From contig CATPCJ010000247.1 of assembly GCA_955652915.1 (NCBI GenBank), positions 1 through 60,479 on the forward strand: a stretch of DNA of 60,479 nt, given 5' to 3'. This document shows, in pieces, positions 1,894 through 44,211 of this stretch. The position numbers and the translations under genes were made by a program. Below the pieces are notes generated by a model. The model was not told where the DNA came from and searched no databases. It saw only the letters and a list, made by a program, of their open reading frames with translations. How positions within the stretch are numbered: position 1 is the first letter of the stretch; every line of letters starts with the position of its first letter. Origin of the DNA: an uncultured Bryobacteraceae bacterium. GTDB lineage: Bacteria; Acidobacteriota; Terriglobia; Bryobacterales; Bryobacteraceae.

Positions 1894-4695
1894 TTACGGG
1901 GCGATCGCCAGGGTAGCTCCGGGTTGGGTGGAGACTCCACCGACGGTAATCACAATCGGCTGCAAGCCAGCAGGAACACCTTGGGGGATCTCCAAATTGA
2001 ATTGGTAGAGACCGACCGAGCCTGCCGACATGCCGGCGAATTTCACGTTCGACGCCGCAAGTTGCAGTCCTCCAATCGTGACTGTGATGGGACTGGCAAG
2101 CAGCACGGTACCCACCGTTGGAACCCCGGCCGTGGAAGGCGGAGTGGTGGCTCCAAAACCGGTGCCATAAATCGTCACGATTGCACCCACCGGGACTGGC
2201 GCGGCTTCTGAGATCGGTTGGCTAGTCAAGGCATTAATGCCAGCCACCAGTCCCTGCCCAAATTGCAATGTGAACAAGGCCGGAGAGAAGGCGGCGATAG
2301 GCACCGAGACGCTGTTGCCTGGCGTTCCCGTTGTGCAATCGTTCTCGACAGCTCCGGTGTTGACAACTACTGTCGCAGTGCCTGAATTTCCTAGCGTGGA
2401 AATCGCCTGCGCGTTAATTTGACCCGGCGAAACAAAGAACAACGGCGCGCACACTCCATTGATTTGAACGCCGGTACCCTGGATCACAAATGGCAGTGCC
2501 CCGTTCACCAGACTGACGACTCCAGCGGGCGCAAACGCCTCGTTGACGCCGAAGATGCTGATGATGGTATTGGCTGAGACCGCGTTGTTCGGGGCGGGGA
2601 TGAAGCTACCGCCGTTGATGGTTCCGCCGACGGAAAGCGTAGCGGGAATCACCATCGGATTGAAGCCTTGCTCAGCAAAAGCCGCGAAGGCTGTGGCGGA
2701 TAAGCTGAGACGAGCCGGGACACAGCCAAAGGGCGTGTTGATGCATTGATCGTAAGGTTGAACGTTTTGGCTCAAAATGGCGGCCACCAAACCATTGCCG
2801 TCGCCATTGGGTGCGTTTTGCTGAGCCTGCTGAATCTGGCTCAAGTAAGAATTGGCCTGGGAAACGAAGTCATCCGTGGCGCTTCCCCGATAAAGGCTCT
2901 GTACGAACTTCAGGGCCACGATGACCTGCCCGGTGTACTGCCAACCGATTCCGTCAGTCCCCGGCGCAACTCCCGCCGGAGCAACGGGCTGTTGAACCGC
3001 ATTAAATCCCAGGTAAGTCTGACCTCCGGCGGTTACCCGCTTGGACTGCGCCAAAACCCCACGCATCGCGCCGGCCCAGTTCAGGGTGCGGTAGGCCGGC
3101 GCCGAGGCCATCGCCAGCGCAGCCAATGTATTGGACTCGAGAGCGTCATAAGCATTGATGGCATCGTCACCCTTGAGCGTCCCGTTCGGCATAACCCCGA
3201 TAGTCAGGTCCTGCTGTTGGCCCCGAGGAACGGTGCCTTGGAAAAACTGGCCGTTCGGTTCCATCATGCTCTGCACAAAGCTTCCAGCAATGCCGGCTCG
3301 CCGCTCCCACTCGGCGGCCGCCATCGAATTCCCGGCCGACGCTTCGGCAGCGGCTAGGAAGTGAAATGCCGCATAGATCAAGGCGTTCCCTGAAGTCCAC
3401 TTGACCTTCAAGGGGGTCTGCGCTCCGTCCACGAATCCCTGGAAGTAACCGCCGTAGCCGGTTGTACTCGGATCGAGCATGGTTCCATAAATCCAATTTC
3501 CGATGGTCCTAGCGTCCGCCAGATAGTTCGATTTGTTTAAAGCAGTAAATCCATGCAAGAAGGCGAGGATGGCCCAAGCGTTCGACGTAGCGCCGGCGCC
3601 ATTGAAGACCACGTTGAAAGAAGGGCCAACGGAAAAGCCACAGAGGCGCACGTCTCCCGCTTTGGATCCGCCGGTTTGAACATTCAACAAAGCGATATCG
3701 CCAGCGCTGTAGCAGTTGTATAGTCCGCGCGAACCATCCGGGCTTGCGGGCAGCGGAAGCCCCTGGTTGGGATGCGCCAAGGCGTAATCGAGAGTGTCCA
3801 GAATCAGGCCCGCCGCCTTCATGTCGCTGGAACTTTTGCGCCGCAGGAAGGCAATTGCGGCCATGGAGACGTCGGCCGTGGGCGCCGCATTCCGGTACAA
3901 CTGGTCAGGAGGGATGGGGACCAGGCCGTTCCTCGCCGCCGACACGGGTAGGATTGGAAGGGTTGAATAGCCGAGCGGAAGCCCCAATGCGTTTGTTTGA
4001 GATGCGGGAACGGGTGTGTACACGATGTTCTGGACGTACAATGTTCCGCCCGAGGGCGCATGTTGGTCATTGGAGACAACGGTCCAAAGAAGATTCGTTT
4101 GGGAAAGATTCGGCGCCGGGGCGATCGCCGTCAGGTCCACGGACATCGGCGTCAAAGTGCCGGGAACGGCGATGTAGGAGCCGGTGGCCCCACCTGCGCC
4201 GAACGCTACATTGATCCCCTGCGGTGACATGGCTTGAAAGGACACTTTTGAGGAGCCCGCGAGATTGTACCCCGCACCGGCTGCGAAGTGAGCCGGCTCG
4301 GTAAAGATAATCCCGCAAAAGTCACCGGTGGATAAAGGAGGAAGCGTGACACGAAGAAGCAATTGGTCCGTGCGCGCCGGATCGGTGGAACACCCTTTCG
4401 GCGCCGAGGCATCGTAGTGACATGCGGTATCGATCGACATAAGGCTGAGGTTCGCGGTAGTGTTCGGCCCTCCGCAAAAGAATCCTCCCGGATCGCCGTG
4501 GTTATACGCCGAATCCGGACTCTCGAAGACCGTAAATGTGGTTTGTTGCCGGGTGACAGCACTGGTCAGGTAGCTATAGGCCTTGGTGCCTATGCCCAGG
4601 TTGGCCGCGCGTACACCTTCCCCGGCGGATGCGGAAGAAGCCGCTCCCAAGATCCCTACCAATAAAACACAAGCGTATGCGCTCAGACCCTTCAT
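1894..4695 (-). CDS. large secreted protein with Solibacter-type C-terminal Ig-like domain
   Basis: Signal peptide MKGLSAYACVLLVGILGAASSASA. The C-terminal ~200 aa (ISIFG...LFFVSPGQINAQ...IYGTGFG...FAGMSAGSVGLYQFNLEIP) follow the TIGR03437-like pattern, recalled from memory and not searched. Confidence 0.7.
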   Translation of the reverse strand: MKGLSAYACVLLVGILGAASSASAGEGVRAANLGIGTKAYSYLTSAVTRQQTTFTVFESPDSAYNHGDPGGFFCGGPNTTANLSLMSIDTACHYDASAPKGCSTDPARTDQLLLRVTLPPLSTGDFCGIIFTEPAHFAAGAGYNLAGSSKVSFQAMSPQGINVAFGAGGATGSYIAVPGTLTPMSVDLTAIAPAPNLSQTNLLWTVVSNDQHAPSGGTLYVQNIVYTPVPASQTNALGLPLGYSTLPILPVSAARNGLVPIPPDQLYRNAAPTADVSMAAIAFLRRKSSSDMKAAGLILDTLDYALAHPNQGLPLPASPDGSRGLYNCYSAGDIALLNVQTGGSKAGDVRLCGFSVGPSFNVVFNGAGATSNAWAILAFLHGFTALNKSNYLADARTIGNWIYGTMLDPSTTGYGGYFQGFVDGAQTPLKVKWTSGNALIYAAFHFLAAAEASAGNSMAAAEWERRAGIAGSFVQSMMEPNGQFFQGTVPRGQQQDLTIGVMPNGTLKGDDAINAYDALESNTLAALAMASAPAYRTLNWAGAMRGVLAQSKRVTAGGQTYLGFNAVQQPVAPAGVAPGTDGIGWQYTGQVIVALKFVQSLYRGSATDDFVSQANSYLSQIQQAQQNAPNGDGNGLVAAILSQNVQPYDQCINTPFGCVPARLSLSATAFAAFAEQGFNPMVIPATLSVGGTINGGSFIPAPNNAVSANTIISIFGVNEAFAPAGVVSLVNGALPFVIQGTGVQINGVCAPLFFVSPGQINAQAISTLGNSGTATVVVNTGAVENDCTTGTPGNSVSVPIAAFSPALFTLQFGQGLVAGINALTSQPISEAAPVPVGAIVTIYGTGFGATTPPSTAGVPTVGTVLLASPITVTIGGLQLAASNVKFAGMSAGSVGLYQFNLEIPQGVPAGLQPIVITVGGVSTQPGATLAIAP

Positions 4696-5094
4696 ATCGC
4701 CCTCCTTGTTGTTGAGCCCGGAACACCCCGACGACCCTCAGGGTAGTCGAGCCGGCGGTGTCCGCACCGTAATCGTACTTGCCAATTTCATATGCGGTAC
4801 GGGACCTCTTTATTTCAGTAGGGAACCTGACAGAAGGCCTCCGGAGGTTGCGCCGGCCAGCCGCGCGGCCCTTCCCCGGTGGCTGGGAGTGTCAGGGCGG
4901 ATGAAACAAGAGTTCAAATACCTGCATGGTTTATAGAAGAACAAGGCGCCTTTGCAATTCCCAGGAGGAGCGCGCTGATGCCCTTAGGGGTTGTCACGAA
5001 ATAACCATGTCCAAAGATCAGCGATCGGCCGCCCGATGCCGGGTTCCGCGGGCGGAAATTTACAACAACCCAATTGCTTAGGAGCAGACCCCAC

Positions 5095-6825
5095 ATGAGT
5101 AAGTTTTACTTGCCGTTGTTAATGACGATGGCTACCGCAGCGCTTTCCGCGGTTGACCGGCCGCGCGGACAAGATCCGTACGCGGCTTACGAATGTGCCC
5201 TGAAGGTGCGCCAGCAGAAATCGACAGGCGCGATCAAGCAATACATTCGCTCCGCCATTTCGGGGAGTCAACTTCCGGCCCCCAAGGATCAGTGTGTCGA
5301 GGACTTGGTCAAACAGAAAGAAACCGACGCCGGCAAAGGAAGCTGGCTGTTATTCATCGCCGAGGTGATGAAGAGCGCCGGCGATTACCGAGCGTTGAGC
5401 TATTATCGGCAGGCGATCAAGGCAGACGACAGAGAGGCTGCGTTTCCCTATTTTCTTGCAGAATATTTGAGGAACTTCAGAGGGCCTCAAGAACCGCTGT
5501 ATCCACAGGCCGAGCAGCAATACATACTTGCTCAACAGACGCTGGACAAGGTGAAGGCCGCGGACAATTGGCGAAAATGGGACGACGAAACTCAAACTCG
5601 TGTCTATCGTAGCCTGGTGGCTCTACACCAGAGAAATGGCCTGCCGCTGGTTTTGCGGAACGGCATTTCGCAGGTCCTGTCCTACGCCTCGATCTTTCGC
5701 CTGGCCCAAACCAACGCCGATTTGGATCGAACGTCAGACATTCGGGACTACACTGCCTCGGCCGCGTTTGCGCAAATCGGAGACCGGAACGGCAAACCCT
5801 TGAATCGTTTGGAATACCGCAGCCTGATCCGCACAGAGACGCCCGTCGACACTTTTGACCGGCTGCGTTTCCGGTACGAGAATCTGCCGGTTGTCGATCT
5901 CATTTATAACTATCGCCACACGACAAATGTGGCGCCCAAGATCTACAAACCGCCGTTCACATTCGTGCCTCTGCAACTGAATACCTGGGGCCTCAACGTT
6001 GCCAAGCCCTTCAGCGTGGGTAACGCCGTGGATGTTTCAATAGAGGGCTCCTTCCGGCAAAGCTGGCGGGAGGGATTGATTGAGTATGTTCCGGAAGGGG
6101 TCGAACATATCAATCAGTTTGAAGGCAAAGCGGCGCTTTCTCGCTTTGTCGGCCCGGACAAACTGAATGTATCGATGGTCTATGTTTACCAGGCGATCAG
6201 CCCGGACGTGCCCAACAATCCAAATCGGGAGCGCACGCTGCTTGCGCCAAGTATTTCGTACCAGTTCTTTCGTCCGTCCACCTTCGGCGAGCATTTTCAA
6301 ACCCGTGGCATCGAGGTGTTCGGCGGCGCACTGCTTGACCGCGAGACCTATCCTGTCCCGCCTGGGGCTAAAGCGGCCGACACCATAGTCCGGCGCCGGG
6401 ACTTTTTTGGCGGGATCGCGGCTCGGGGGCTGGGCGGTGGCCGCTGGGACTTTACCTTTCAGCCGACGTTCTTCTCATCGGTAGTGAGACCGGATCGTAC
6501 TCAGGATAATTCTCAATATCGTTCGAACGTGGTGATTCTCCGCCGAATCGTCGATGAAGAGAAGACTCCTGGCCTCCCCGGCCGGCGGCGGGGAAATCAC
6601 CTGGGGTTTCTGCATCTTGTATTTCCGCTGCAGCACGATGTCGCGCGCACGGGAATCGACGCTTATCGCAACTATAAGGCGGGCGTTGAGCTAGACACCA
6701 TGTGGTACACCACGGCGCGTTCGGGAGTTACCTTTTTAGGAACGTTCCGCTATGACTTTCAGCGTTTCTATGCTCTCAACAAAAATCAGAACCTGTTCGC
6801 TTTCGGCCTGAGCATGGGCTTCTAA
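5095..6825 (+). CDS. putative outer-membrane beta-barrel protein
   Basis: AGGAG RBS before ATG 5095. Signal-like MSKFYLPLLMTMATAALSA. Beta-rich C-terminal part ending FGLSMGF; a terminal Phe is typical of OMPs. The longer ORF begins at 5074. Confidence 0.5.
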   Translation: MSKFYLPLLMTMATAALSAVDRPRGQDPYAAYECALKVRQQKSTGAIKQYIRSAISGSQLPAPKDQCVEDLVKQKETDAGKGSWLLFIAEVMKSAGDYRALSYYRQAIKADDREAAFPYFLAEYLRNFRGPQEPLYPQAEQQYILAQQTLDKVKAADNWRKWDDETQTRVYRSLVALHQRNGLPLVLRNGISQVLSYASIFRLAQTNADLDRTSDIRDYTASAAFAQIGDRNGKPLNRLEYRSLIRTETPVDTFDRLRFRYENLPVVDLIYNYRHTTNVAPKIYKPPFTFVPLQLNTWGLNVAKPFSVGNAVDVSIEGSFRQSWREGLIEYVPEGVEHINQFEGKAALSRFVGPDKLNVSMVYVYQAISPDVPNNPNRERTLLAPSISYQFFRPSTFGEHFQTRGIEVFGGALLDRETYPVPPGAKAADTIVRRRDFFGGIAARGLGGGRWDFTFQPTFFSSVVRPDRTQDNSQYRSNVVILRRIVDEEKTPGLPGRRRGNHLGFLHLVFPLQHDVARTGIDAYRNYKAGVELDTMWYTTARSGVTFLGTFRYDFQRFYALNKNQNLFAFGLSMGF

Positions 6826-6982: not shown

Positions 6983-7918
6983 CTACTTGCCGCAAGGTTG
7001 CTTGGAAAAATGGAGATCGTCCAGAAAGACGACACCACCGGTTGGGTTCATGGCCTTGGTCAGAACGATTGTGAACGCGCTCACCACGTTCTTCAAGTCT
7101 TCGCCAGACAAGTCCAGGCAGTACGGCTGCCAGTCTCCTTTTAACTGACGAAACTCGTCGACCACTTCGTGGGAAGCCTCATAGCCAATCTTTACCTGCG
7201 GTCCCGTACCGCCGCCGGATTTGAACTGCACAGTCGGAAAATCGCCTTCCGCGGACCTCAAGCCGCGAGCCCAAATTCGAAGCGAATGTATATCCTGGCC
7301 GGCCAAGTTTTTGCCTTTTGTTTCGCCCCAGTTCATCGTGCCCTGAGTGACGTACTGCCAGCTTACGGCGGCCCACCCGATGTCCCGGGGCTTGTAGTCC
7401 AGTCTGATACTGAATGGCTCGGAGTGCGGATGGTCACGAGAGCGTTCGTTAATAACAACGCCACCGCTCATGGCATCGCCCATGTAACCGGCGGCAACGA
7501 ATCCCAGTTTAATGATGTCGCCAGCCTCTGCAGGGCCGGGAGGTTGTTCAACGCGGGGCTGCTGCAATGGTTGTTCCGCGTTTGCCTTCGGTTTATCGTC
7601 TTTCGTTATTTCGAGGGACAGATCCCTGGTGATCTCGCCTCCGGGCGTGCGAATTCTGCAGATAATAACAAGCGGCCCCGGCGAATTCAGGACAATCTTG
7701 ACGGTGAGATCGGTGTTGGACCCCTCAATGCGAGCGGGCCCCTGCGCCTCCCAGGCCGGCTTCGCATCCCGTGCCAGCTTACCGGCCAACTCCAAGACAA
7801 TCGTTGCGCCAACTCGCGGCGGATCTCCAGATTTTAATTTGATCTCCTGGGCACTGATGGACCCAGTGAGAGCGGCCGCAAAGAAAAACGTGTTGCGAAT
7901 AAAACTATGCATGGTCAT
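6983..7918 (-). CDS. secreted protein, Ig-like N-domain plus beta-sandwich (CBM-like) C-domain
   Basis: Signal peptide MTMHSFIRNTFFFAAALTGSISAQE, a Pro/Gln-rich linker and a GGAG RBS. It starts 12 nt after the stop of the upstream gene. Confidence 0.55.
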   Translation of the reverse strand: MTMHSFIRNTFFFAAALTGSISAQEIKLKSGDPPRVGATIVLELAGKLARDAKPAWEAQGPARIEGSNTDLTVKIVLNSPGPLVIICRIRTPGGEITRDLSLEITKDDKPKANAEQPLQQPRVEQPPGPAEAGDIIKLGFVAAGYMGDAMSGGVVINERSRDHPHSEPFSIRLDYKPRDIGWAAVSWQYVTQGTMNWGETKGKNLAGQDIHSLRIWARGLRSAEGDFPTVQFKSGGGTGPQVKIGYEASHEVVDEFRQLKGDWQPYCLDLSGEDLKNVVSAFTIVLTKAMNPTGGVVFLDDLHFSKQPCGK

Positions 7919-7930
7919 TTTTGAGTCTCC

Positions 7931-9001
7931 TTATTCTTCTCGAACAATCGCATTACCAATACCAATCCCATCCCGACGTTGCAGAATAAACAAAAGCTTC
8001 AAAGGGAGGACAGAATTATTCTGCCGCACACGGTGAATTTCGAATTGCGCGTGGTACCTTCGCAGATCGCCATGGGACGTTCCGGGAAGTATACGCACTG
8101 AACCCAGCATGGGGAAGGTGCACGTCAGACTCGGTGAGCCTTTATCATCCGCGAGGCAGATTGCATGAACCCTCCGGCCCGATCGCGGCAGGTCCTCCGC
8201 GAACAAGTGCAAGACCGCCGGTAGAGGTCCCAATCCTGGCGGAACAAGGAAGACCGGCTCAGGTCCTGGGACTGGTTTCAATCCCAAAGTGACGGGTGTT
8301 ATCGGACCGTTCGGGGGGACTGCAAAACCGCTGATGTCGATCGCCCAGAAACGAGGCGGACAACCCTCGGCACACTGATGCGTAATGGCCCGGCCAATTT
8401 TTTCAATCGCCAGGGAAGGTAGGGCGTTGAGGGCGAGAAACAGGCAGAGTCCCGGCAACCAGAGCCACAGCATCCAGCGCCAAGGCCTGCCCCACCATAT
8501 TCCAGGCAAGCTCTGTCGAGAGATTTTTTGATTCTCGTGGGACTGCAAATAAAATCTTAGATTTTTAGGACAACCCTTTCGGCCGGCAAGTCTCCATAAA
8601 ATCCGAAGCCACCGGGGCCGGAGAAGGCCTGTTTGCCATTCGAAGAAACGTCGCATTACAGACGGCCGCGTGCGTTCGCCAGCGATAGCACGGAACATCG
8701 CCACCCATTCGCGTCGATCAAAGCACGCGCCGGGAATCACGAGCTGGATAGGTGTAGGCCGTCTCGAGCCTCGGTCGATACGCAAAAAGCAACCAAGTTC
8801 CAATACAAGAATGAAGAAGGCGGCAAACATAAACGCGAATTGGTCCATATTTTCCGTCCACCACCGGTTTTCCGGAAAAAACTTCAGGACCCAGAAGTCG
8901 CAGAAGAAAAACCATGCGAGCAAGCTGCCAACTCCCATACGCGCCATGGAACCCAGATTGCCAGTCAATAGGTACTGCAGCACAAGCAGGAAATGATGCA
9001 T
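7931..9001 (-). CDS. integral membrane protein of unknown function (last gene of the coupled operon)
   Basis: Start chosen at ATG 8999-9001, which shares one base with the TGA of the upstream gene (TGATG). Three hydrophobic helices: LLAWFFFCDFWVLKFF, FAFMFAAFFILVLELGCFL, WMLWLWLPGLCLFLALNALPSLAI. The ORF could extend to 9058. Confidence 0.5.
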   Translation of the reverse strand: MHHFLLVLQYLLTGNLGSMARMGVGSLLAWFFFCDFWVLKFFPENRWWTENMDQFAFMFAAFFILVLELGCFLRIDRGSRRPTPIQLVIPGACFDRREWVAMFRAIAGERTRPSVMRRFFEWQTGLLRPRWLRILWRLAGRKGCPKNLRFYLQSHENQKISRQSLPGIWWGRPWRWMLWLWLPGLCLFLALNALPSLAIEKIGRAITHQCAEGCPPRFWAIDISGFAVPPNGPITPVTLGLKPVPGPEPVFLVPPGLGPLPAVLHLFAEDLPRSGRRVHAICLADDKGSPSLTCTFPMLGSVRILPGTSHGDLRRYHAQFEIHRVRQNNSVLPLKLLFILQRRDGIGIGNAIVREE

Positions 9002-9654
9002 CACCCGCCACCTAGCAGAAGGCCCCGCGCCTGAAGCAGAAACAGCCTCTCGATGCACTCCTTACCGCTTGAACACTCGATGACCGGAAGACTTCTTCCA
9101 CCTTCTACCTGAAATTTGTGGACGACGGGTTCTTCCCCGTGTCGCGCGTTCCTCCACGGTACTCCTCCCTGATTCTGTGGGATGACGGCAATTGAAATCG
9201 CCGCCAAGTTCGCCAGCGCGGTGAGTTTGTCCAGGATGGATTTTGGTTCCACGTGCTGGAAGTAACCACAATCGTCGCCGGCGGCTGTAATACCGACGCG
9301 ATCAATACTCAGACACCGAATGTTTTCCGGCATGAGATGCGGATTCAATTCGCACGCCAGCTTGGCCAGGGCGAGAAAGGCCGCCCCAAATATCGATCCT
9401 CCACTTGCGCGCGGAGGAGTCCCTCCATTGAAAGTCACCATGTCCCATTCGATGTAAGTTCCCGCGAAGCATCCTGGGAAACATTCCTTGACCGCGACAT
9501 ATGCGGCTGTGATCACATCATCGAAGGATTTGGTGGCTAGCCGGCCCATTGCGGCCGAAAATTGCAACGGAAGACCGGCAGAGAGTTGTTTGACGATGAG
9601 CCGTGCAACGAAATATCCATTTGCCGAGCCGCATGGGGCGGTACAGAACGGCAT
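9001..9654 (-). CDS. hypothetical protein; possible Lon-protease-like (S16, Ser-Lys dyad) domain
   Basis: ASGGSIFGAAFLALAKLA...VGITAAGDDCGYFQHVEPKSILDKLTALA...IAVIPQNQ parallels the Lon protease-domain pattern DGPSAG.A...AMTGE...G.V.PIGG..EK...IIP..N. Similarity was judged by eye only. Confidence 0.45.
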   Translation of the reverse strand: MPFCTAPCGSANGYFVARLIVKQLSAGLPLQFSAAMGRLATKSFDDVITAAYVAVKECFPGCFAGTYIEWDMVTFNGGTPPRASGGSIFGAAFLALAKLACELNPHLMPENIRCLSIDRVGITAAGDDCGYFQHVEPKSILDKLTALANLAAISIAVIPQNQGGVPWRNARHGEEPVVHKFQVEGGRSLPVIECSSGKECIERLFLLQARGLLLGGG

Positions 9655-9657
9655 GAC

Positions 9658-10380
9658 TTAACTCCCTGCGTGCCAAGGGGCATAGACAAGTGTGATTACG
9701 TCAGTGCCTTCGGGAATTTCGAATCGTCCGTCCCAAGTGGCGATCCATCGTCCTGGCTGCACCGATTCATCGAATTTCGCACGGGCGGACACCAACTTAT
9801 GTTCCTCCGCTGTCCCGTAGCCGGATCGGAAGCTAAAAACTACCGATCCAGTCCCCAACTCCTTAACATTCGTTTCGAACAAGAGATTAAGCGCGGTCGT
9901 TTCAGACGGTATGAGCGTCACTTGAATTCGGGCGTCTATCGGCACAGAGTTGACTCGAACGGGCCGGGGCAAAGCGGAATCTGAAGTAGTGAAGGCAACC
10001 GCGACCCTTGCTTCGCCGATCTCTTCCCCAAGCGATTCCGGTCTGGCCAAAGCGTAGAGGCGATAGCTGGTTTTTTCATCTCGACCGATTTCAAAAATGT
10101 CTGTCGTGCCGTCCTCCCCGAAGTCCAGGAAGTTGATTTTTCCTGAATCGGATTCGAACATTGCTTCCAGCCGATTCCACTCTACTTCGGTGTGGGCGAA
10201 CGCGTGGCAGGCGATAAGCCCCCGCACCATGGCATCCCCTGGCTGGGAGGTGATGATCACGGACAAAGACAGATTCTCGCCCCGCACGTGAGTACCGTAG
10301 CGCGAGTCGAAGGCAAGTTTATTTAGCAATTTCTCGGCCTCCTGAAGCGCCGCGCTTTTTCGCTCAATTCTATCCGTCAT
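9658..10380 (-). CDS. hypothetical protein (beta-rich, no recognisable motif)
   Basis: 240-aa ORF. Its start overlaps the upstream stop by 11 nt, and its stop lies 3 nt before the next start. Confidence 0.5.
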   Translation of the reverse strand: MTDRIERKSAALQEAEKLLNKLAFDSRYGTHVRGENLSLSVIITSQPGDAMVRGLIACHAFAHTEVEWNRLEAMFESDSGKINFLDFGEDGTTDIFEIGRDEKTSYRLYALARPESLGEEIGEARVAVAFTTSDSALPRPVRVNSVPIDARIQVTLIPSETTALNLLFETNVKELGTGSVVFSFRSGYGTAEEHKLVSARAKFDESVQPGRWIATWDGRFEIPEGTDVITLVYAPWHAGS

Positions 10381-11896
10381 TTCTTCTCCCTCCTTTTCGC
10401 TGCCGGCGGACCTGGATGTCTTTGAGGCTTGGAACTTCTCCTGGTTTCAGACCGTAGTAGTCGTAGCCAACAATCCGCGCATGGGGGAAATTTTCGTTGG
10501 GCCGGTAGATTGTGGCCGGCGGCCAATTGTCCATGGTAGGCGCATCGCAGAAAGGACATACTCGATCCTGGTCCTCCAATAAATAGCCACAGCGGATCGG
10601 CTCTGGCTGGGCTTGCACCAAAGCACCGGTTTCCGGATCGGGAACAAATATCTTGATTAGCGGTGTGTACCGGTTCCGGCACCGGCGCACTCGAATCGAT
10701 TCGTAGGAGGGCGGGTCGCCTAAATAAAACAGGCATTCCATCGTGCCCCGGTACCGGCGATACTCACCACTCGGACTCGGACGCTCCTCCGGCTCCGCCT
10801 CGAATTTGCCGACCCGAATTTGCCCCCAACGAGTCCGCCGATCCGACCGGCGGAGTAGTCCGGCACCCAGATAGGCGCCGTACATGCCTTCGGCAAACGA
10901 ATTTGCATGGGGATTGGGTAGCTGGCCGCGGACCGCGTTAATAACTGAGCGTGACAAGCTAATATCCGCTGGACGCCATTTCTCCAGACGATGGCGGTCC
11001 TTACAGTACCATCCGCCACATTGGCACTCTAGCACGTCGAAGTCGCCTTCCAGGCGCGCCGAGCGCCCCGGTGGAACTGGACTCTCCGGCCCCAAATTCG
11101 CGGGACCTTTAAGTTCTTTGATCCTGACCTGCAAATCACCGCATCGTATCACGGCTCGATTTCCGTCGCGGAAAAGCCTCGATGCATCGTTTTGGAAGGG
11201 GGCAATGACCATGTCACCCTGTGGCTGAAGCGTCAAGTTCGATCCGGGCAGCATCGTTAGGGCACGCACGCCGTTCACGGCGATGTCTGCCGCTTCGCCG
11301 CGGTAAGAGACGGTAACTTGACCGTTTGAGTAACTCAGGCTGTGCTCCGGGTCAAGGTACCACGCTAGTAATTTGTCGGCGATTTTGTGGACCGTATCGG
11401 CATCCTCAAGATAGTCCCATCCGCCAGCCGTCATCAGGCAATTGACGGAGTTCTCAAGAAACCGATTTGCAATGTTCACAGCCTCGATGAATTGGAACCT
11501 GAGCCATGCTGCCGCCCGGGGCCATCGGTGTTCAGGAGTAGTTGGATGTCCGTTGAGGACAGTGCGTCGCCATCCCAGGCCGTAAGCGACACAGCAGTCC
11601 ACGGCGTGGTTGAACGCGGGAGCCGCATTGGCGGCGAACTCGATGGCGAGTTGATTCACGATGGCCTCGTGGTGGGCCGTAACTAGATGTGCCCACGCTA
11701 CCGCACCGCCGATTGGGGCGAAATCCTTTGTCAGAACTCCGATGCAAACGGCAACACGCACCTCGATTGCAGTTGGGTTTCCAACCATGACCGCTTGAAC
11801 TTGGGTCTCCAGGCTCTCGATTTCTGGCGAAACCAGGGCTTCGAGATGGTGATTGCCGGATATCTCAAGAGCGCATACCAGATCATCAAAATTCAT
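10370..11896 (-). CDS. hypothetical protein with Cys-rich C-terminal region
   Basis: The ORF extends to 12010. ATG 11896 (MNFDDLV...) has GGAG 6 nt upstream. The C-terminal part contains CQCGGWYC and CGY...CPFC clusters. Confidence 0.5.
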   Translation of the reverse strand: MNFDDLVCALEISGNHHLEALVSPEIESLETQVQAVMVGNPTAIEVRVAVCIGVLTKDFAPIGGAVAWAHLVTAHHEAIVNQLAIEFAANAAPAFNHAVDCCVAYGLGWRRTVLNGHPTTPEHRWPRAAAWLRFQFIEAVNIANRFLENSVNCLMTAGGWDYLEDADTVHKIADKLLAWYLDPEHSLSYSNGQVTVSYRGEAADIAVNGVRALTMLPGSNLTLQPQGDMVIAPFQNDASRLFRDGNRAVIRCGDLQVRIKELKGPANLGPESPVPPGRSARLEGDFDVLECQCGGWYCKDRHRLEKWRPADISLSRSVINAVRGQLPNPHANSFAEGMYGAYLGAGLLRRSDRRTRWGQIRVGKFEAEPEERPSPSGEYRRYRGTMECLFYLGDPPSYESIRVRRCRNRYTPLIKIFVPDPETGALVQAQPEPIRCGYLLEDQDRVCPFCDAPTMDNWPPATIYRPNENFPHARIVGYDYYGLKPGEVPSLKDIQVRRQRKGGRRNDG

Positions 11897-12204
11897 TCTC
11901 AACTCCAGTGAGAGGTTGCCGGCGGATGGAGGCAGTATGGCCGCCATTTCCAGGCCGCAACGGTTCCATAGACATATCGCACTGAAAACAAAGGATGATC
12001 GGGCACACATTGCTACCAGTCATCACTAGAAGTCGCATCCTTAAACCTCCGTCTTCGAGTGGCTATCAACTCCCAAACCTATTAGGGAGCTGCCCCCGGC
12101 AACTGAGCCTTCCGCTTCACCCGAATCACAATAACGTGACGTGACGAGCATTTTTATTTCAACAACTCTGGAAATCGCGGCAGTCAATCCCTGGTGCGCT
12201 ACAG

Positions 12205-12438
12205 TCAGGAGGTATCCCCCACCAGCGTGCGACTTAACTTTCTGGCCGCCTGGTTCTGACTCCAAGGCTCTAATCCAAAGTCGTACGGATTGTCGCGAGC
12301 AACCGCATCCCAGCGCGGAACTCCCCATACGGAACCACACTGCTCGCATTTCCACAGTTTGGCAAACCGTCCCATCTCGTTCTTGAATATTGTCACCGCG
12401 GCTTTGCCACGGCATCTTGGACAAATACGATCGATCAT
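12205..12438 (-). CDS. small zinc-ribbon protein
   Basis: AAGGAGAG RBS 5 nt before ATG 12438. The CPRC...CEQC pair suggests a Zn ribbon. 77 aa. Confidence 0.4.
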   Translation of the reverse strand: MIDRICPRCRGKAAVTIFKNEMGRFAKLWKCEQCGSVWGVPRWDAVARDNPYDFGLEPWSQNQAARKLSRTLVGDTS

Positions 12439-12601: not shown

Positions 12602-12808
12602 CTAGATAAGCATCCAGATCAAAGCGGCAATTTCGACTGCCGGAATAAACCAGATATAGAATTCGCTCCTGTATCGCGGAGAAGCGATGATCCGATCCTC
12701 GATAATGTGAGGATGTTTGGAGTTCTTGCAAGCAAAGACGAGGCGATCCCGCTCCCACCGATGCTCCACTTGTCTCCCGCATCGTCCGCAGTCCCAATAA
12801 ACTCGCAT
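12602..12808 (-). CDS. small Zn-ribbon-like protein with C-terminal TM helix
   Basis: GGAGG 11 nt before ATG 12808. Contains CGRCG...CKNSKHPH, and the C-terminus FYIWFIPAVEIAALIWMLI is hydrophobic. Confidence 0.35.
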   Translation of the reverse strand: MRVYWDCGRCGRQVEHRWERDRLVFACKNSKHPHIIEDRIIASPRYRSEFYIWFIPAVEIAALIWMLI

Positions 12809-13151
12809 GGCCAACCTGCCTCCAGCGAGAGTTAGGCCGCTGTCCGGCAGCCAGGAGGGTTTATCGAGTGAGGCGGCAAGGGCTGAAATGGGAGCTAAGA
12901 CTCAAAATCAGGAAAAGACCGACACGGTAGGGGCCGGATCGAACCGGATGAAGCTGTATTGCTCAGGTCAAGCGTGCGGTAGAGACATGCGCGTCGAGTG
13001 CAATTCCAACGTTTCAGAGGCGGATTGCACCCTCGGATTCTTTCCCCCGTCGAACCGTGTGCTCAACGCCTCGGCGCGAGTTTGCAGGACGCCCCCTGAT
13101 TCTTCTTTGAATTCAAGCAGTAGAAATGTGTTAGGATCTGTGCGTATTGGG

Positions 13152-13342
13152 CACCCGTAGCTTAATTGGTACGAAGACGCTCGCGGGAACCTTTGGAAGC
13201 TTGGTTTGGGAGACGGGCAGCTTTTTCCAGGGTATCAATGCCGGTAGCTCGTTCCTTGTGGAAGAAGCGGAACAAAAGGGTCTCAAAAGCACCAGTTTTG
13301 GGAACTGGGAGATGCGGGTTCGAATCCCGTCAGGTGCGCCAT
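13152..13342 (+). tRNA. tRNA gene, anticodon UGG (Pro-type anticodon arm), interrupted by a 115-nt insertion between A21 and nt 22 (possibly a pseudogene)
   Basis: 13152-13172 reads GCACCCG-TA-GCTT-AATTGGTA. 13288-13342 reads AAGC-A-CCAGT-TTTGGGA-ACTGG-GAGAT-GCGGG-TTCGAAT-CCCGT-CAGGTGC-G-CCA. Joined, they form a canonical 76-nt cloverleaf. Confidence 0.6.
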
Positions 13343-13872: not shown

Positions 13873-14820
13873 CTATTTGCTCGCGCTCCGGGAATGCAAC
13901 GGGAATCCCTGTTCGAACATTGCGTCGGCAACCTCGCGCAACTCGAAGGCTCCCGCATCCCGGAACACCCGTAGCGTGGCCCGGCTGGCAGCGCGCGCAT
14001 TGGCGAGTAGCGTTTCCGGCGGGTAGCTCTCTTCCAGTATCGTTTCCGCCTCACGCACACTATAGTGTCGCCGGAGAAATGCGCGGATGGCGGGATCGTC
14101 GACCTTCAAGAATCCCAAAATAAACCGGGGCAGGGAGCTTCCGATGGTGACTTGGAGGCGCCGGGGCATCTGGGGCCATGCGATTCGACACACCTTGGCG
14201 AAGAACGCGTGGTGGTGAACCTCGTCCTCAGCGTGGTCCGCGGCCATTTCCCGAACCGCGGGAATCACATCGTCCGCTTGGGGAATACACAAGAGGGACC
14301 CGGAGATCAGAGTTTCGGAAACGACAACAAAGAATAGCTCTACCCAGGCCCGCGCTTCCGGCTCCGCCGCGGACACAGCCGAGTGGAAAAACTCCAACCC
14401 AGGATGCCCTGACCCTCCATCGAACCGGAATCCCGTTGCAGCCTGGATCTGAAACATCAGATCGGCCGAAAAGAGAGAATGATAACCCTCATCGCAGTAA
14501 ATTTTGCGGGCGTCCAAGAGGGCGTCTTGCGGAAGGGAGAGCCCGGCAAGTCCGTCGGCCAATTTCCGCACTGTCCGATTCACCACTTCGTGCTCCAGAC
14601 GATCCGTGAAATGAAGGTACGAAAATAACTGCTGCATCAAGCCTTCCCGGACGATCTTTGGGTCGGCGGAGGCGAGAAGGGGGTGCTTTATGAACGGAGT
14701 AAGTTCCGCGGGAAAACATCCAAGCCCTTGCTGTTCAAGCTGCTGCCCCAGCAACCTCCTTGGCCTGGAGCGGACGGTGGCTCGTTGATGCCAATCCCCG
14801 AGCACCGTCTTATACTCCAC
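13873..14820 (-). CDS. AurF/CmlI-family diiron (N-)oxygenase-like protein
   Basis: Ligand-like pattern DRLEHE ... CDEGYH (ExxH) ... VSETL ... ADHAEDEVHHH (HxxxExxH). GTG start. Confidence 0.65.
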   Translation of the reverse strand: MEYKTVLGDWHQRATVRSRPRRLLGQQLEQQGLGCFPAELTPFIKHPLLASADPKIVREGLMQQLFSYLHFTDRLEHEVVNRTVRKLADGLAGLSLPQDALLDARKIYCDEGYHSLFSADLMFQIQAATGFRFDGGSGHPGLEFFHSAVSAAEPEARAWVELFFVVVSETLISGSLLCIPQADDVIPAVREMAADHAEDEVHHHAFFAKVCRIAWPQMPRRLQVTIGSSLPRFILGFLKVDDPAIRAFLRRHYSVREAETILEESYPPETLLANARAASRATLRVFRDAGAFELREVADAMFEQGFPLHSRSASK

Positions 14821-14974
14821 CGTCTTCCCCCCACCCTTTCAGCATTTTTCCGCACGCGCCGGTTTGCCAGTTCCGATTAACGCGATATAGTCTTGAATCG
14901 TATCACAATCGCCGGACAACCCAAGACGGCCCGTCAAATTGTCGCGATTTTATTTCTGGTGATACGATAAGCTG

Positions 14975-15814
14975 GTGCAGAGCATCACCGAATCCTTACA
15001 GGCGGCATATCGTGAAAGATCCAAAATGTTCGATGCAATCTGTAATGCCTCTCCCTGGCATCGTTTGTATCGCGAAACCACGCTGACCGCGATCGATCGC
15101 ACGCTGTCCACACTCCCGCCAGGTCCACTCCGCATTCTCGATGCCGGCGGGGGTACGGGCTTGATGGCGGAGTGGCTCGCTAAAAAGGGTCATCACGTCG
15201 TGCTGGTCGACACTCTTCCGGATATGCTCGAGATCTCGCGAAAGAAGAGCCGCGAAACTCCCTTTGAAGTGCGTCAAGGCGATCTCTCGGATCTGTCCTG
15301 GCTCGATCCGGAATCTTTCGACGCAATCGTTTGCACCCAAGTGCTGAACTTTTTCCCAGACTTGGGCGCCGTGTTCCAGCAATTCGCCGGCGTGCTCAAA
15401 CCGTCGGGCATGGTGTTCGCCGATATCGACAATCCACTACGCTGGTGCCTGATTGAGGCGTTGGACGGTCAAATCGAGAATGCTATCGCGATCGTCCGGT
15501 CGGGAAAGGACGAACGCCGGAACATCGTCGGGGCGGATTATTTCTTTCACCGTAAGCAAGATCTGGCCGAGATCGTCGCATCCGCCGGGTTGAGACTGGA
15601 AGCTTCCTGGGGGGTTGCGTACATCGCCCCCTATGTGCATATTTTTGCGCGATCGCAAGAGTTCCTTACTCCTGAAAAGCTCCCTGAGCGAGCTGCGTTC
15701 TTCGCTCGCGAAGAGAACTATGAAAAGCTCAGGGCCCTGGAAGCGGAACTGGCGGCGCTCGACTTATGCGACGAAATGGCCGGCTACTTGCAGTTTTTCT
15801 GCGTTAAGCACTGA
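14975..15814 (+). CDS. class I SAM-dependent methyltransferase
   Basis: Motif I ILDAGGGTGLMAEWLAKKGHHVVLVD, with the acidic post-I residue and motif II/III spacing. Confidence 0.8.
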   Translation: MQSITESLQAAYRERSKMFDAICNASPWHRLYRETTLTAIDRTLSTLPPGPLRILDAGGGTGLMAEWLAKKGHHVVLVDTLPDMLEISRKKSRETPFEVRQGDLSDLSWLDPESFDAIVCTQVLNFFPDLGAVFQQFAGVLKPSGMVFADIDNPLRWCLIEALDGQIENAIAIVRSGKDERRNIVGADYFFHRKQDLAEIVASAGLRLEASWGVAYIAPYVHIFARSQEFLTPEKLPERAAFFAREENYEKLRALEAELAALDLCDEMAGYLQFFCVKH

Positions 15815-42537: not shown

Positions 42538-43470
42538 CCGGACTTGCCCCTGTCGTCCGCATCCGGCGACTTTCCCGACCCGACGGTCTTCAGGCGCGTC
42601 TCGTCGAATTTGAAATTCTGCGTAGTGTAATCGCGAACCACCATGCTGCGCGCTTCAGTGAGCAGCATGCCGGTGGAGGCGGCCACTACGGCCAAACCGA
42701 ACTTGTTCGTTTCCAGAAATCGTCCGGCCTCGTCCAAGGCTTTCCGATTTTTCAGTTTCGCCGTATCCGGTTTGTCGAAAATCTTTACCGGGTCATACTC
42801 AAACTTCTTCAGCGATGGCTCCACCGGCAATTGAGCGATTTCGTGAGCGCGCATTTCGATCGAGTCTTATATCCACGCCTCTTGAAAAAGCCACGCAGGA
42901 AAAAGTTATGCTTCAATGCCTCCATGTTTTCCTGGAAAGCGGTAGCGCCCGCGGCCGCTTCGCGATAGATCGTCTTGTCGTTGACTAGCGCTCCCACATT
43001 ACCCTGCCTTCGTTCACTTGGGCGCTTGCCGATTTCAAATAGTCCGCCGCTCCCTCGATGTTCTCCACGGCTCCTTTGGTGCTGTCCAGGATGGTGCTGG
43101 TCTTTGCGATCGGATCTGAAATGTCGCGCGGAAGGGCACTAGCGATGGTATCCCCATTTCTTAATTTGGGCGCATCCGGCGATCCGAACGAGATCTCCAC
43201 CTACTTGTCGCCCAACAAGCCTTCCGGCTTGATGGACGCCACAGAATCGTTCTTGAGAACCTCGCTCGTCGCCCGGTACATGTCCATTACCACCGTGACT
43301 TTTTCATCGGCCGTTTCGGTAATTCAATGCGCTTGACCGTTCCTTCGTGGATTCCGCCGACGCGCATATCGGCGCCTTCCCGATTACCGATCAGGAATAC
43401 CCCGATAGCGAGGATGATCAGGCCGCACACAATAAAGAGACCTAAACGGTAGCCTAGCGCTGTATTCGCT
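42450..43470 (-). pseudogene. decayed MlaD/MCE-family gene
   Basis: N-terminal TM ALGYRLGLFIVCGLIILAIGVFLIGNR without a start codon. Frameshift near 43312 (IELP/ETADEK). In-frame TAG at 43211-43213 inside the conserved EGLLGDK*VEISFG. Further frame changes near 42990 and 42850. Confidence 0.7.
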
Positions 43471-44211
43471 TGTACCCTGGATGACTTCCGGCTGCTTCAG
43501 GCAGCGTCTCTTTTTCCGGTTCTGCGCGACTCGTCAGCGTGGTTATATCTTTAATGATTAATGATTCGCCACCATGGGTAGGTCTTTTCAGGCCATCCCG
43601 CCAACTGGTGCGTCAGAATAGTCAAGTAATCACTATGCTATGGGGAGCATCTCTCGACGTACACCGGCATACACTCATCACTTTCTTGCAACTTCGTCAC
43701 GGCTTGGGCTTTTTATCACGATTTGTCGTTCTGATAAGAGTGTCGTTGAGCCGCCTCCTTTGGTTTGTTTTCGTGTTCCGTGGCCGGAAAATACGAAAGT
43801 AGTTGGCATCATCGACGCCGGCTGTCTGACTCCTGTCGGACGAAAGCGTTACGGCCGTCAAAGCTCTTTGAATAGTTGGATGGGCGGTGATATTTCATTT
43901 GAGTTTTTACTTGACTTCGCTACCGTCTTCACTTAGTCTTAAAATTAATTCGCAGCAATAGGCGAAGAGCACCGTTTGGATTCCTTCTTCCCCGCGTCCT
44001 GGGTCAGTCCTGTGGATGCGCCTCCCGCCGTGATGCGCGTTTGAAAGGTGTTGTTCATCATTTAAATAAAGGAAGGTGGCCCATGCTCAACGGTGGACTC
44101 GAAGTTTAACGTTCCGGTGCGCAGAAGGGTCTGGCTCTATGATTCCGGAGCTTTGCGCGCCTTCTCCAGGCCTGCCGAGTCCATGGATATTATCCTATCG
44201 GGGCGACACTC

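What the first reader, a model, noticed from the sequence alone, without database searches (positions are those of the whole stretch)
6983..12010. Translationally coupled operon of unknown function with a Lon-like protease domain and a membrane protein, in a lower-GC patch next to a tRNA
Seen:
- Four ORFs on the minus strand are tightly coupled: 508/546 aa with Cys clusters, 240 aa beta-rich, 217 aa, and a ~356-aa three-TM membrane protein.
- The junctions are an 11-nt overlap, a 3-nt gap and a TGATG overlap.
- A secreted 311-aa protein follows 12 nt downstream.
- Two tiny Zn-ribbon ORFs (12205-12438, 12602-12808) lie upstream.
- By eye, stretches here are far more AT-rich than the rest of the contig; for example, 8521-8580 has about 20 G+C out of 60.
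- The 217-aa protein has a GGS...K pattern resembling the Lon S16 Ser-Lys protease domain.
- I recognised no motif in the other proteins.

Inference: a horizontally acquired island. Protease plus membrane effector plus unknown sensor proteins is an arrangement common in conflict or defence systems, but no known system matches from memory.
Basis: partly seen in the sequence, partly recalled or inferred. Interest (0 to 1): 0.7.

Follow-up and report, generated by a model that had tools for sequence, protein, structure and literature searches.

The report
Uncatalogued Lon-like protease sensor operon
This five-gene operon belongs to a rare, uncatalogued bacterial family built around a stand-alone Lon-type protease and two unknown partner proteins, and its relatives' domain fusions suggest a sensor-triggered proteolytic switch of the immunity or conflict type.

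Summary
The five minus-strand ORFs and their junctions exist as described and are real genes. The whole A-B-C-D-E cassette recurs in the same order in Paludibaculum fermentans and in one metagenome contig, in different flanks.

None of the five matches Pfam, NCBIfam, PADLOC or PHROGs. The Lon idea survives by indirect routes:
- C links by profile (hhalign 93.6%) to domains in related loci that pass Pfam's Lon_C threshold.
- Ser87 and Lys143 are two of only six invariant columns.
- PDB profile hits and fold hits are weak, but many of them are Lon or BrxL.

A is a Zn-binding multidomain protein (model pLDDT 85) with no structural neighbour in PDB or BFVD. A plus B is the conserved core in about 30 loci. 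Elsewhere the Lon-like domain sits N-terminal to NACHT-WD40, or is fused to a TM/CHASE2-like region. Neighbouring genes there carry RelA/SpoT-TPR, SLATT or eCIS domains, and one A relative is fused to CHAT-TIR. In the window, membrane protein D and exported glycan-binding-type protein E take the sensor position.

The island claim is weak. GC is only 3 points lower, GC3 and codon usage are atypical, there is no intact tRNA, and I found no att repeat.

Verdict: a new variant of sensor-protease conflict systems. Function is inferred, not shown.

The parts
10370..11896 (-). Gene A, 508 aa (the alternative upstream ATG at 12010 gives 546 aa). A Zn-binding multidomain protein: helical N-domain with an AYGxGWRR motif, a beta-sandwich, a C-x-C-G-x3-C-x3-H knuckle, and a C-terminal Cys-rich beta/Zn-ribbon domain.
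   Evidence: ORF. Full HMMER scan: 66 distant relatives with the core at residues 95-345. Invariant G218, C291, C293, C298, H302, G324. AF2 model pLDDT 85.4, pTM 0.84. No PDB or BFVD fold match at E<=1e-3. No family in Pfam, NCBIfam, PADLOC or PHROGs.
10991..11026 (-). Codons of the invariant Cys291-x-Cys293-Gly-x3-Cys298-x3-His302 motif of A, a putative zinc knuckle.
   Evidence: Invariant in 44 aligned family members. Codons read.
9658..10380 (-). Gene B, 240 aa: an N-terminal helix followed by mainly non-helical regions that I read as beta-rich (no structure model). It is the constant partner of A.
   Evidence: 11-nt overlap with A. A B-like gene follows A in nearly all loci long enough to show it. 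Alignment A6. No PDB or family match. B is fused to the Lon-like-NACHT-WD40 protein in L033.
9001..9654 (-). Gene C, 217 aa: a stand-alone Lon-fold (S16-like) Ser-Lys peptidase domain without an ATPase module.
   Evidence: hhalign to NACHT-associated domains: 93.6%, E 2e-7. Those domains pass Pfam Lon_C: 30.3 and 23.9 bits against a cut-off of 21.1. The profile finds Lon structures in the PDB, weakly. Foldseek top hits are Lon and BrxL, not significant, from a low-confidence model. One 55% identical homologue with the same neighbours.
9394..9396 (-). Codon of Ser87 of C, the predicted nucleophile, in the motif G-G-S.
   Evidence: Invariant in the 8-sequence alignment at 14-56% identity to the window's C. 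Aligns with the GPS/GDS Ser of the domains that match Lon_C.
9226..9228 (-). Codon of Lys143 of C, the predicted general base.
   Evidence: Invariant. Aligns with the Lys of 'LPIGGAFQKLLAA' in L016 and with the 'GGVTQKIEAA' Lys of A. fulgidus LonB 1z0e.
7931..9001 (-). Gene D, 356 aa: a three-TM membrane protein with a basic loop of about 110 aa (predicted cytoplasmic) and a C-terminal domain of about 145 aa (predicted outside).
   Evidence: TGATG coupling to C. Hydropathy and K/R counts. Homologues directly after C in L001, L002 and L003.
6983..7918 (-). Gene E, 311 aa: an exported protein with a signal peptide, a small N-domain, a Pro-rich linker and a C-terminal domain of about 180 aa of the kind found in or beside GH17 glycosyl-hydrolase proteins.
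   Evidence: 12 nt after D. Best-conserved cassette member: E 3e-49 to 6e-58 against L002 and L003. Alignment A7. tblastn hits on plasmids inside a 'glycosyl hydrolase family 17 protein' and beside another.

Best explanation
The locus is a five-gene operon of a previously uncatalogued, apparently rare family.

The conserved core has three parts:
- A, a Zn-binding multidomain protein with no known structural relative.
- B, a protein of about 245 aa that always follows A.
- A Lon-fold Ser-Lys peptidase domain without an ATPase, which is C in the window.

In most relatives the peptidase domain sits at the N-terminus of a NACHT-WD40 (NLR-type) protein, which is the effector position. In one relative it is fused to a TM/CHASE2-like membrane region. 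Neighbouring genes in some relatives carry SLATT, RelA/SpoT-TPR or eCIS-core domains, and one A relative is fused to CHAT-TIR.

The family therefore most likely works as a sensor-activated proteolytic switch of the conflict/immunity type. In the window's clade the cytoplasmic NTPase sensor is replaced by the membrane protein D, translationally coupled to C, and the exported glycan-binding-type protein E.

Proposed working (inferred, not shown):
1. E and the outer domain of D detect an envelope or extracellular cue.
2. D relays it to C at the inner face of the membrane.
3. C (Ser87/Lys143) cleaves A and/or B.
4. Cleavage releases an active fragment, possibly A's Cys-rich C-terminal module, which is a separate gene in other loci.

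Shown: gene order and coupling, conservation of the cassette as a unit, the Lon homology and dyad conservation, and the domain associations. Inferred: the direction of signalling, the substrates, and the biological output.
For: - Real, coupled genes.
- The cassette A-E is conserved in order in Paludibaculum (L002) and in metagenome contig L003, while the flanks are unrelated to the window's.
- The A-B pair is conserved across about 30 loci. A's C-terminal domain is a separate gene in some of them.
- Lon homology. The profile of the four C proteins hits the gene after B in L017 (E 2e-6). After adding L017 it hits L016, L010, L018 and L012 (1e-12 to 1e-9). hhalign gives 93.6%. The L016 domain passes the Pfam Lon_C gathering score, both joined (3.8e-7, 30.3 bits) and unjoined (3.4e-5, 23.9 bits). 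Ser and Lys are invariant. Lon structures are recovered weakly by profile and by fold.
- Conflict-type associations: NACHT-WD40 in L016, L023 and L033; RelA_SpoT-TPR in L027; weak SLATT hits in L023; eCIS_core in L012; CHAT+TIR fused to A in P0006; weak Avs1b and PDC-S33 hits.
- L017 fuses the Lon-like domain to a TM region followed by a stretch with a weak, sub-threshold CHASE2 match. This is a precedent for membrane-linked sensing.
- D topology. E is exported, with a glycan-enzyme-associated domain.
Against: - No direct HMM or PDB-sequence hit of the window's own C to Lon. The link is transitive. The C model is poor (pLDDT 42), so fold hits are only suggestive.
- No experimental or catalogued defence function. 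PADLOC finds nothing for A-E.
- The window version lacks every recognisable toxic effector and any NTPase.
- The C-D-E combination was seen in only three independent sequences beyond the window (L001 fragment, L002, L003), and L002 and L003 share flanks.
- In L002 and L003, E is followed by NAGPA-like and oxidoreductase genes, which could mean E belongs to glycan metabolism rather than sensing.
- Substrates and cleavage were not tested.
- The family was not found in viral contigs or, for A, on plasmids, so no mobility vehicle is known.
Confidence: 0.5

Rival explanations
1. The same components act as a non-immune envelope-to-cytoplasm regulatory pathway, a regulated proteolysis analogous to anti-sigma cascades. 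E and D sense an envelope or polysaccharide state. C cleaves A or B. A, through its Zn-ribbon module, changes transcription.
For: - D and E are envelope proteins, and E carries a domain shared with GH17-type proteins.
- A's C-terminal region weakly resembles the Spt4/RpoE'' Zn ribbon (E 0.003).
- One family member (P0057) carries a CarD/TRCF RNA-polymerase-interacting domain at the same position.
- No toxin domain in the window's cassette.
Against: - The Spt4 similarity is borderline and Zn ribbons match promiscuously.
- There is a single CarD-fusion example.
- The relatives' partners (NACHT-WD40, CHAT-TIR, SLATT, RelA/SpoT, eCIS core) are typical of conflict systems rather than housekeeping regulation.
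- Distribution looks sparse and sequences are very divergent (27-37% identity between the window and Paludibaculum).
Confidence: 0.2
2. E, and perhaps D, belong to extracellular glycan metabolism, and A-C are an unrelated adjacent module. The five genes are not one functional system.
For: - E's C-terminal domain occurs in or beside GH17 proteins.
- In L002 and L003, E is followed by NAGPA-like and GFO/IDH/MocA genes.
Against: - E follows D by 12 nt in the window and by about 18-20 nt in L002 and L003. D overlaps C.
- The A-E block is retained while the flanks differ completely between the window and L002/L003.
- The downstream NAGPA and oxidoreductase genes are absent from the window.
Confidence: 0.1
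3. The ORFs are a decaying or inert horizontally acquired remnant with no current function.
For: - Atypical GC3 and codon usage.
- Almost no close relatives in 5.8 billion protein clusters.
- A degenerate tRNA-like element lies nearby.
Against: - All five reading frames are intact, with tight translational coupling.
- The catalytic dyad and the Zn ligands are retained.
- Protein-level conservation is higher than DNA-level conservation against L001 (55% aa identity; the best DNA segment is 69% over 285 nt).
- A folds confidently.
Confidence: 0.05

Closest known systems
Bacterial NLR-type STAND systems with N-terminal protease effectors (bNACHT/Avs, Apaf-1-like proteins with caspase-like N-termini, gasdermin-protease systems)
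   Same: In relatives (L016, L023, L033) the Lon-like domain occupies the N-terminal effector position of a NACHT-WD40 protein, with a weak Avs1b NTPase hit. Small partner proteins are encoded alongside and could be protease substrates. Bacterial Apaf-1-like proteins with N-terminal caspase-like proteases are described in PMC13581612.
   Different: The protease is Lon-fold Ser-Lys, not caspase/CHAT or trypsin-like. The partners A and B are not gasdermins: there is no PADLOC or Pfam hit. The window's version has no NTPase or repeat sensor at all, but a membrane protein and an exported protein instead.
CalpL-CalpT-CalpS (CRISPR type III SAVED-Lon protease, anti-sigma factor, ECF sigma factor)
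   Same: An ATPase-less Lon-type protease acts as a signal-activated switch that cleaves a co-encoded partner to give a downstream response (abstracts). The system has three parts.
   Different: There is no SAVED domain, no CRISPR context and no sigma or anti-sigma homology in A or B. The activating input here would be protein sensors, not cyclic oligoadenylate.
BrxL C-terminal Lon-like domain (BREX)
   Same: It is among the top fold hits of the (poor) C model: 8emh, 8emc and 8eil, probability up to 0.87 over about 88 residues. It is a Lon-like domain used in a defence system.
   Different: There is no AAA+/MCM-like module and there are no BREX genes. PADLOC finds none.
Canonical Lon/LonB proteases (MEROPS S16; Pfam Lon_C)
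   Same: A Ser-Lys dyad in the same order and spacing. Relatives pass the Lon_C threshold over profile positions 105-189. LonB and Lon structures are recovered weakly.
   Different: There is no AAA+ ATPase and no N-domain. The window's C does not itself reach any Lon HMM. Stand-alone ATPase-less Lon-fold proteases are known from birnavirus VP4 (my own knowledge, not tested here).
Multi-component conflict systems of multicellular bacteria (Kaur, Burroughs, Iyer and Aravind, eLife 2020, PMC7159879)
   Same: The same vocabulary of associated modules (STAND NTPases, WD40/TPR, TIR, SLATT, peptidases) and the same theme of variable sensors and effectors around a constant core.
   Different: Neither that paper nor PMC8195603 mentions a Lon-type component. 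Word searches did not link A or B to any system described there.

Membership tests
Lon protease family (S16, Pfam PF05362 Lon_C) | Sequence matches the Lon_C profile above the gathering score | tested here: inconclusive
   The window's C, its 55% homologue and the Paludibaculum C give no Pfam hit even at E<=5. Related domains (L016) pass at 30.3 and 23.9 bits against 21.1, and C links to them by hhalign at 93.6%.
Lon protease family (S16, Pfam PF05362 Lon_C) | Catalytic Ser-Lys dyad in the conserved motifs | tested here: met
   Ser87 and Lys143 are two of six invariant columns in 8 sequences at 14-56% identity to the window's C. They align to the GPS...K positions of Lon_C-matching domains and to the AfLonB Lys.
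Lon protease family (S16, Pfam PF05362 Lon_C) | Lon proteolytic-domain fold | tested here: inconclusive
   The C model has pLDDT 42. Foldseek top hits are mostly Lon P-domains and BrxL, but E is 0.05-0.4 and TM about 0.3.
Canonical LonA/LonB | AAA+ ATPase module fused to the protease domain | tested here: not met
   C is 217 aa with no P-loop and no AAA hit. It is not a canonical Lon.
BREX (BrxL) | BrxL with an ATPase/MCM-like module plus PglX, PglZ and BrxC neighbours | tested here: not met
   No PADLOC hits for any of the seven ORFs scanned (A-E and the two Zn-ribbon ORFs). The window neighbours that matched a family are housekeeping-type.
CalpL/T/S | SAVED domain on the protease, sigma/anti-sigma partners, type III CRISPR context | tested here: not met
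   No SAVED, sigma or CRISPR-associated hits in A-E.
Bacterial NLR-like (NACHT/STAND) defence proteins | STAND NTPase domain with a repeat sensor | tested here: not met
   Absent from the window's cassette. Present in relatives L016, L023 and L033. The window is a relative of such systems, not a member.
Bacterial gasdermin-protease systems | A gasdermin-family pore-forming protein next to the protease | tested here: not met
   B and A give no Pfam or PADLOC hit. B's profile finds nothing in the PDB. The fold of B was not modelled.
tRNA-integrated genomic island | Intact tRNA at one boundary, a direct repeat of its 3' end at the other, and an integrase | tested here: not met
   No tRNA with default ARAGORN or Rfam. 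The 3' segment of the tRNA-like element is unique in the window. No att-like repeats. No integrase was seen, although the small ORFs at 12-14 kb were not all scanned. Composition is only mildly atypical.

The most novel reading that the evidence does not exclude
A, B and the ATPase-less Lon-fold peptidase form a new immune or conflict signalling core, and A represents a new protein fold family. This core can be plugged into interchangeable sensors: cytoplasmic NACHT-WD40, membrane CHASE2, or, as in this window, a membrane protein plus an exported glycan-binding protein. The window's variant would then be a bacterial defence or cell-fate switch triggered from outside the cytoplasmic membrane, with proteolytic activation of a Zn-binding effector.
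Probability: 0.3. Interest if true: 0.8.

Novelty: new variant of a known kind. Interest (0 to 1): 0.62.

Why it matters
If the model is right, it adds three things:
- A Lon-type Ser-Lys protease as a further effector class for bacterial NLR-like sensors.
- Two unknown partner families, one with no structural neighbour in the PDB or BFVD, as candidate substrates or executors.
- A natural example of the same proteolytic core being rewired from an intracellular NTPase sensor to an envelope sensor.

It also gives concrete experiments: S87A and K143A mutants, cleavage of A and B, and D-E binding. The system is small and cloneable at 5 kb. More generally, the case shows that a protein with no hit in four profile libraries can still be placed through the variable partners of its distant relatives.

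Tried and rejected
- Direct profile scans of A-E against Pfam, NCBIfam, PADLOC and PHROGs gave nothing.
- Word-seeded homology searches found only self for A, even with a 44-sequence profile, and one relative for C.
- PDB sequence searches with single proteins and with profiles of A, B and E gave nothing meaningful. The Spt4/RpoE'' hit to A's C-terminus (E 0.003) is kept only as a lead.
- The C-only profile against the PDB gave nothing.
- The structure of C from a 2-sequence alignment was poor.
- Foldseek of the good A model against PDB and BFVD found no relative.
The metagenome scan anchored on C found none. The viral-contig scan found none. A against plasmids by tblastn found none.
- The window's own record could not be retrieved, so the organism is unknown.
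- tRNA and island boundary: default ARAGORN and Rfam were negative, there is no repeat of the tRNA-like 3' end, and there are no att-like repeats. The promoter/terminator scan was at chance level.
- The alpha/beta-hydrolase or patatin reading of G-x-S-x-G was rejected. The window's motif is G-G-S-I-F, and the downstream [ST]A..D..G...V...K...A..IP/Q pattern and the Pfam hit fit Lon instead.
- The gasdermin idea for B was rejected for lack of any hit.
- The literature searches found no description of this system.

Full report
**1. The observation**

The five minus-strand ORFs and their junctions are exactly as described.
- A is 10370-12010 (546 aa). The 508-aa form, starting at 11896, is the one in the protein database (P0001) and the one that aligns with homologues.
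- B is 9658-10380, overlapping A by 11 nt.
- C is 9001-9654, 3 nt after B.
- D starts at the ATG of TGATG (9001) and is 356 aa. The homologue on L001 confirms this start.
- E is 6983-7918, 12 nt after D.

The codon-position pattern is coding-like (GC1 > GC2). GC3 is 0.57-0.61 in A-D against 0.64-0.74 in the other long ORFs of the window. Synonymous-codon adaptation to the rest of the window is about zero.

Bulk GC is only 55.7% against 58.5%, which is -1.6 SD, although the lowest-GC 5-kb window of the whole 60 kb starts at 8501. The quoted 60-mer at 8521-8580 has exactly 20 G+C.

No tRNA is called by ARAGORN or Rfam. It has a perfect T-arm/acceptor/CCA end and a tRNA-like 5' end separated by about 100-130 nt. 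ARAGORN calls it only with intron or low-threshold settings. Its 3' end is not repeated in the window, and there are no att-like repeats.

**2. The genes are real and travel as a unit**

C has one 55% identical homologue, on a 1.2-kb Logan contig (L001). That contig shows the same B|C|D order, a 3-nt B/C gap and an ATGA-type C/D overlap.

A genome scan found one locus, in Paludibaculum fermentans (L002). All five genes are there in the same order with overlapping or near-abutting junctions:
- A, E 4e-14
- B, 9e-5
- C, 7e-14
- D, 3e-4
- E, 3e-49

A 49.6-kb metagenome contig (L003) has the same cassette. The flanks of L002 and L003 share nothing with the window's flanks, apart from a generic C-terminal domain of a secreted protein. 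So A-E behaves as a unit and E belongs to it.

The two small Zn-ribbon ORFs upstream have no counterpart in any locus. The window's other genes with family matches are housekeeping-type: alanine racemase, LeuRS and a sigma-70-family factor.

**3. What the proteins are**

None of A-E matches Pfam, NCBIfam, PADLOC or PHROGs at E<=1.

*Protein A*
- A full HMMER scan of 1.84 billion representatives found 66 distant relatives sharing residues ~95-345.
- Conserved motifs are AYGCG[WK]xR, PPGxK, and an invariant C-x-C-G-x3-C-x3-H followed by RL..W.P...SAVKGP...GSF.GMY.
- With that alignment, AlphaFold gives a confident model (pLDDT 85.4, pTM 0.84).
- The model has four parts: a helical N-domain, a beta-sandwich, the Zn knuckle with helices, and a C-terminal beta/Zn-ribbon domain.
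- Foldseek finds no relative in the PDB or BFVD. The best E is about 1e-3 and TM is at most 0.15, with only galectin-like beta-sandwich noise.
- In loci with short A genes, the Cys-rich C-terminal domain is a separate gene of about 190-210 aa between A and B (hhalign 98.9%).

*Protein B*
- B-like genes of about 245 aa follow A in almost every locus long enough to show it.
- The B profile finds nothing in the PDB.

*Protein C*
- Direct searches fail.
- A profile of the four bona fide C proteins hits the gene after B in L017 (E 2e-6 among 1248 ORFs).
- After adding L017, the profile also hits the third genes of L016, L010, L018 and L012 (1e-12 to 1e-9).
- In L016 the domain is split. One ORF ends just after '...LTGPSMGGAFALGLVKLLATA'. 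After AGGAGG-N6-GTG, the next ORF begins '...LAGVAITAQVGSDGALLPIGGAFQKLLAAA...' and continues into a P-loop NTPase and WD40 repeats.
- Joined, the two halves match Pfam Lon_C at E 3.8e-7 and 30.3 bits (gathering score 21.1) over profile positions 105-189.
- The second half alone scores 23.9 bits.
- hhalign of the window-type C alignment against the NACHT-associated set gives 93.6% probability (E 2e-7, 145 columns). Ser87 and Lys143 fall on the GPS and QKLLAA positions.
- In an 8-sequence alignment at 14-56% identity to the window's C, only six columns are invariant. Two of them are Ser87 and Lys143.
- That profile gives just 15 weak PDB hits, 8 of them Lon sequences from four different proteins: AfLonB 1z0e (E 0.034), 8dvh, 1rr9 and 1xhk.
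- The poor C model (pLDDT 42) retrieves mostly Lon P-domains and the BrxL C-terminal domain as top Foldseek hits, none significant.
- I conclude that C is a divergent, ATPase-less Lon-fold peptidase with an intact dyad.

*Protein D*
- D has three TM segments, a basic loop (22 K/R in 114 residues, so probably cytoplasmic) and a C-terminal domain of about 145 aa on the other side.

*Protein E*
- E has a signal peptide and a C-terminal domain that, by tblastn, also occurs inside a 'glycosyl hydrolase family 17 protein' of Chlorohelix and next to one in Haliscomenobacter.
- This suggests a carbohydrate-binding-type module.

**4. What the relatives say about function**

Around the constant A-B(-Lon-like) core, the other components vary in the manner of conflict systems.

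| Locus or protein | Arrangement |
|---|---|
| L016 | Lon-like domain N-terminal to NACHT/AAA_16 plus WD40 |
| L023 | Lon-like domain plus NACHT (contig ends within the gene), convergent on A-B |
| L033 | One 1925-2092-aa protein joining B, Lon-like, NTPase and 14 WD40 repeats |
| L017 | Lon-like domain fused to a TM region, then a weak, sub-threshold CHASE2 match |
| L027 | RelA/SpoT-TPR gene after B (PADLOC candidate PDC-S33) |
| L023 | Protein with weak SLATT hits upstream of A |
| L012 | eCIS-core (DUF4157) gene downstream |
| P0006 | CHAT-TIR-A fusion |

PADLOC recognises only these generic parts, never A, B, the Zn-ribbon module or the Lon-like module. Word searches inside the surveys of such systems (PMC7159879, PMC8195603, PMC13581612) found no Lon component and no match for this architecture.

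**5. Most likely mechanism**

The Lon-like domain occupies the effector position of NLR-type proteins. B is physically fused to it in L033. A and B are the only invariant partners. The simplest reading is a sensor-activated protease whose substrates or co-effectors are A and/or B.

In the window's clade the NTPase-repeat sensor is missing. C is instead translationally coupled to the membrane protein D, which is followed by the exported E. L017 shows that a membrane-linked version exists as a fusion.

I therefore propose an envelope-side input (E plus D's outer domain), relay through D, activation of C, and cleavage of A and/or B. All of these steps are inferred.

A non-immune regulatory reading is a serious rival. 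It would be proteolysis-controlled transcription through A's Zn-ribbon. The leads for it are the weak Spt4-like match and one CarD-RID fusion at the same position.

**6. Comparison and novelty**

The locus works like protease-armed NLR systems and like CalpL/T/S. It fails the defining tests for canonical Lon (no AAA+), BrxL/BREX, CalpL (no SAVED or CRISPR context), gasdermin systems and STAND proteins (none in the window).

I rate it a new variant of a known kind, the sensor-protease conflict modules. Its core families are uncatalogued in the libraries available here. Function remains unproven.

**7. Limits**

- Only two structure predictions were possible, and C's alignment had two sequences.
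- B, D and E were not modelled.
- The genome scan pattern covered only the 'AYG[CL]GW' subclade, so rarity in genomes is not established.
- The source organism is unknown. A Solibacter-type C-terminal domain in a neighbouring secreted protein and the Paludibaculum relative hint at Acidobacteriota; this rests on my own knowledge and was not tested.

Noticed in passing
window 13151-13341 (+): A split tRNA-like element. The 5' part is GCACCCGTAGCTTAATTGGTA... and there is a perfect T-arm/acceptor/CCA 3' end about 100-130 nt later. Default ARAGORN and Rfam do not call it. ARAGORN -i reports a 'tRNA-Glu(ctc) with a 97-nt intron', and -ps90 reports a tRNA-Leu(caa)-like 3' fragment at 13251-13341. 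It could be a pseudo-tRNA, an interrupted tRNA or an old attachment-site remnant. Its 3' end is unique in the window.
   Followed up: partly
L016 8226-8966 and 8984-11611; also L010 6876-7697 and L012 2140-2949: In L016 the Lon-like domain is split between two ORFs, exactly between the Ser helix and the Lys half, with a strong AGGAGG-GTG restart 17 nt downstream. In L010 and L012 the ORF stops at the same point and no Lys half follows. This may be a two-chain protease, recoding, or decay.
   Followed up: partly
window 10370-10860 (C-terminal domain of A); protein P0057 residues 376-431: A's C-terminal Cys-rich region weakly resembles the archaeal Spt4/RpoE'' Zn ribbon (PDB 3lpe_B, E 0.003). 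One family member carries a CarD/TRCF RNA-polymerase-interacting domain at the equivalent position. This is a possible link to RNA polymerase.
   Followed up: no
L002 18369-19274; L003 18423-19442: A second ORF with a B-like C-terminal domain (E 7e-16 and 1e-18 against Paludibaculum B) lies about 3.6 kb downstream of the cassette in both full-length relatives. It has a different N-terminal region.
   Followed up: partly
window 13873-15814: An AurF-like p-aminobenzoate N-oxygenase family gene (Pfam 1.8e-17, minus strand) lies next to a SAM-methyltransferase gene (plus strand), just beyond the tRNA-like element. This may be a small tailoring or biosynthetic pair.
   Followed up: no
window 1894-4695 (-) and 5074-6825 (+): Two large ORFs without Pfam hits. 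The 933-aa one has a signal-peptide-like start and a C-terminal domain shared with a secreted protein on L003 that has a GH16-like motif. I recall this as the Solibacter-type C-terminal domain, which would hint at Acidobacteriota. The 583-aa one ends in ...GLSMGF, like an outer-membrane beta-barrel.
   Followed up: partly
window 43001-44000: This is the lowest-GC 1-kb bin of the window (51.8%). One of only three places with at most 20 G+C in 60 nt lies here (about 43886-43955). Not examined.
   Followed up: no
alignment A6, around residue 129 of window B (window ~9994-9996): An invariant Ala, usually within L-A-A, sits in an otherwise variable-length linker between the two halves of B. It could be a cleavage site for the Ser-Lys protease. 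This is pure inference.
   Followed up: no
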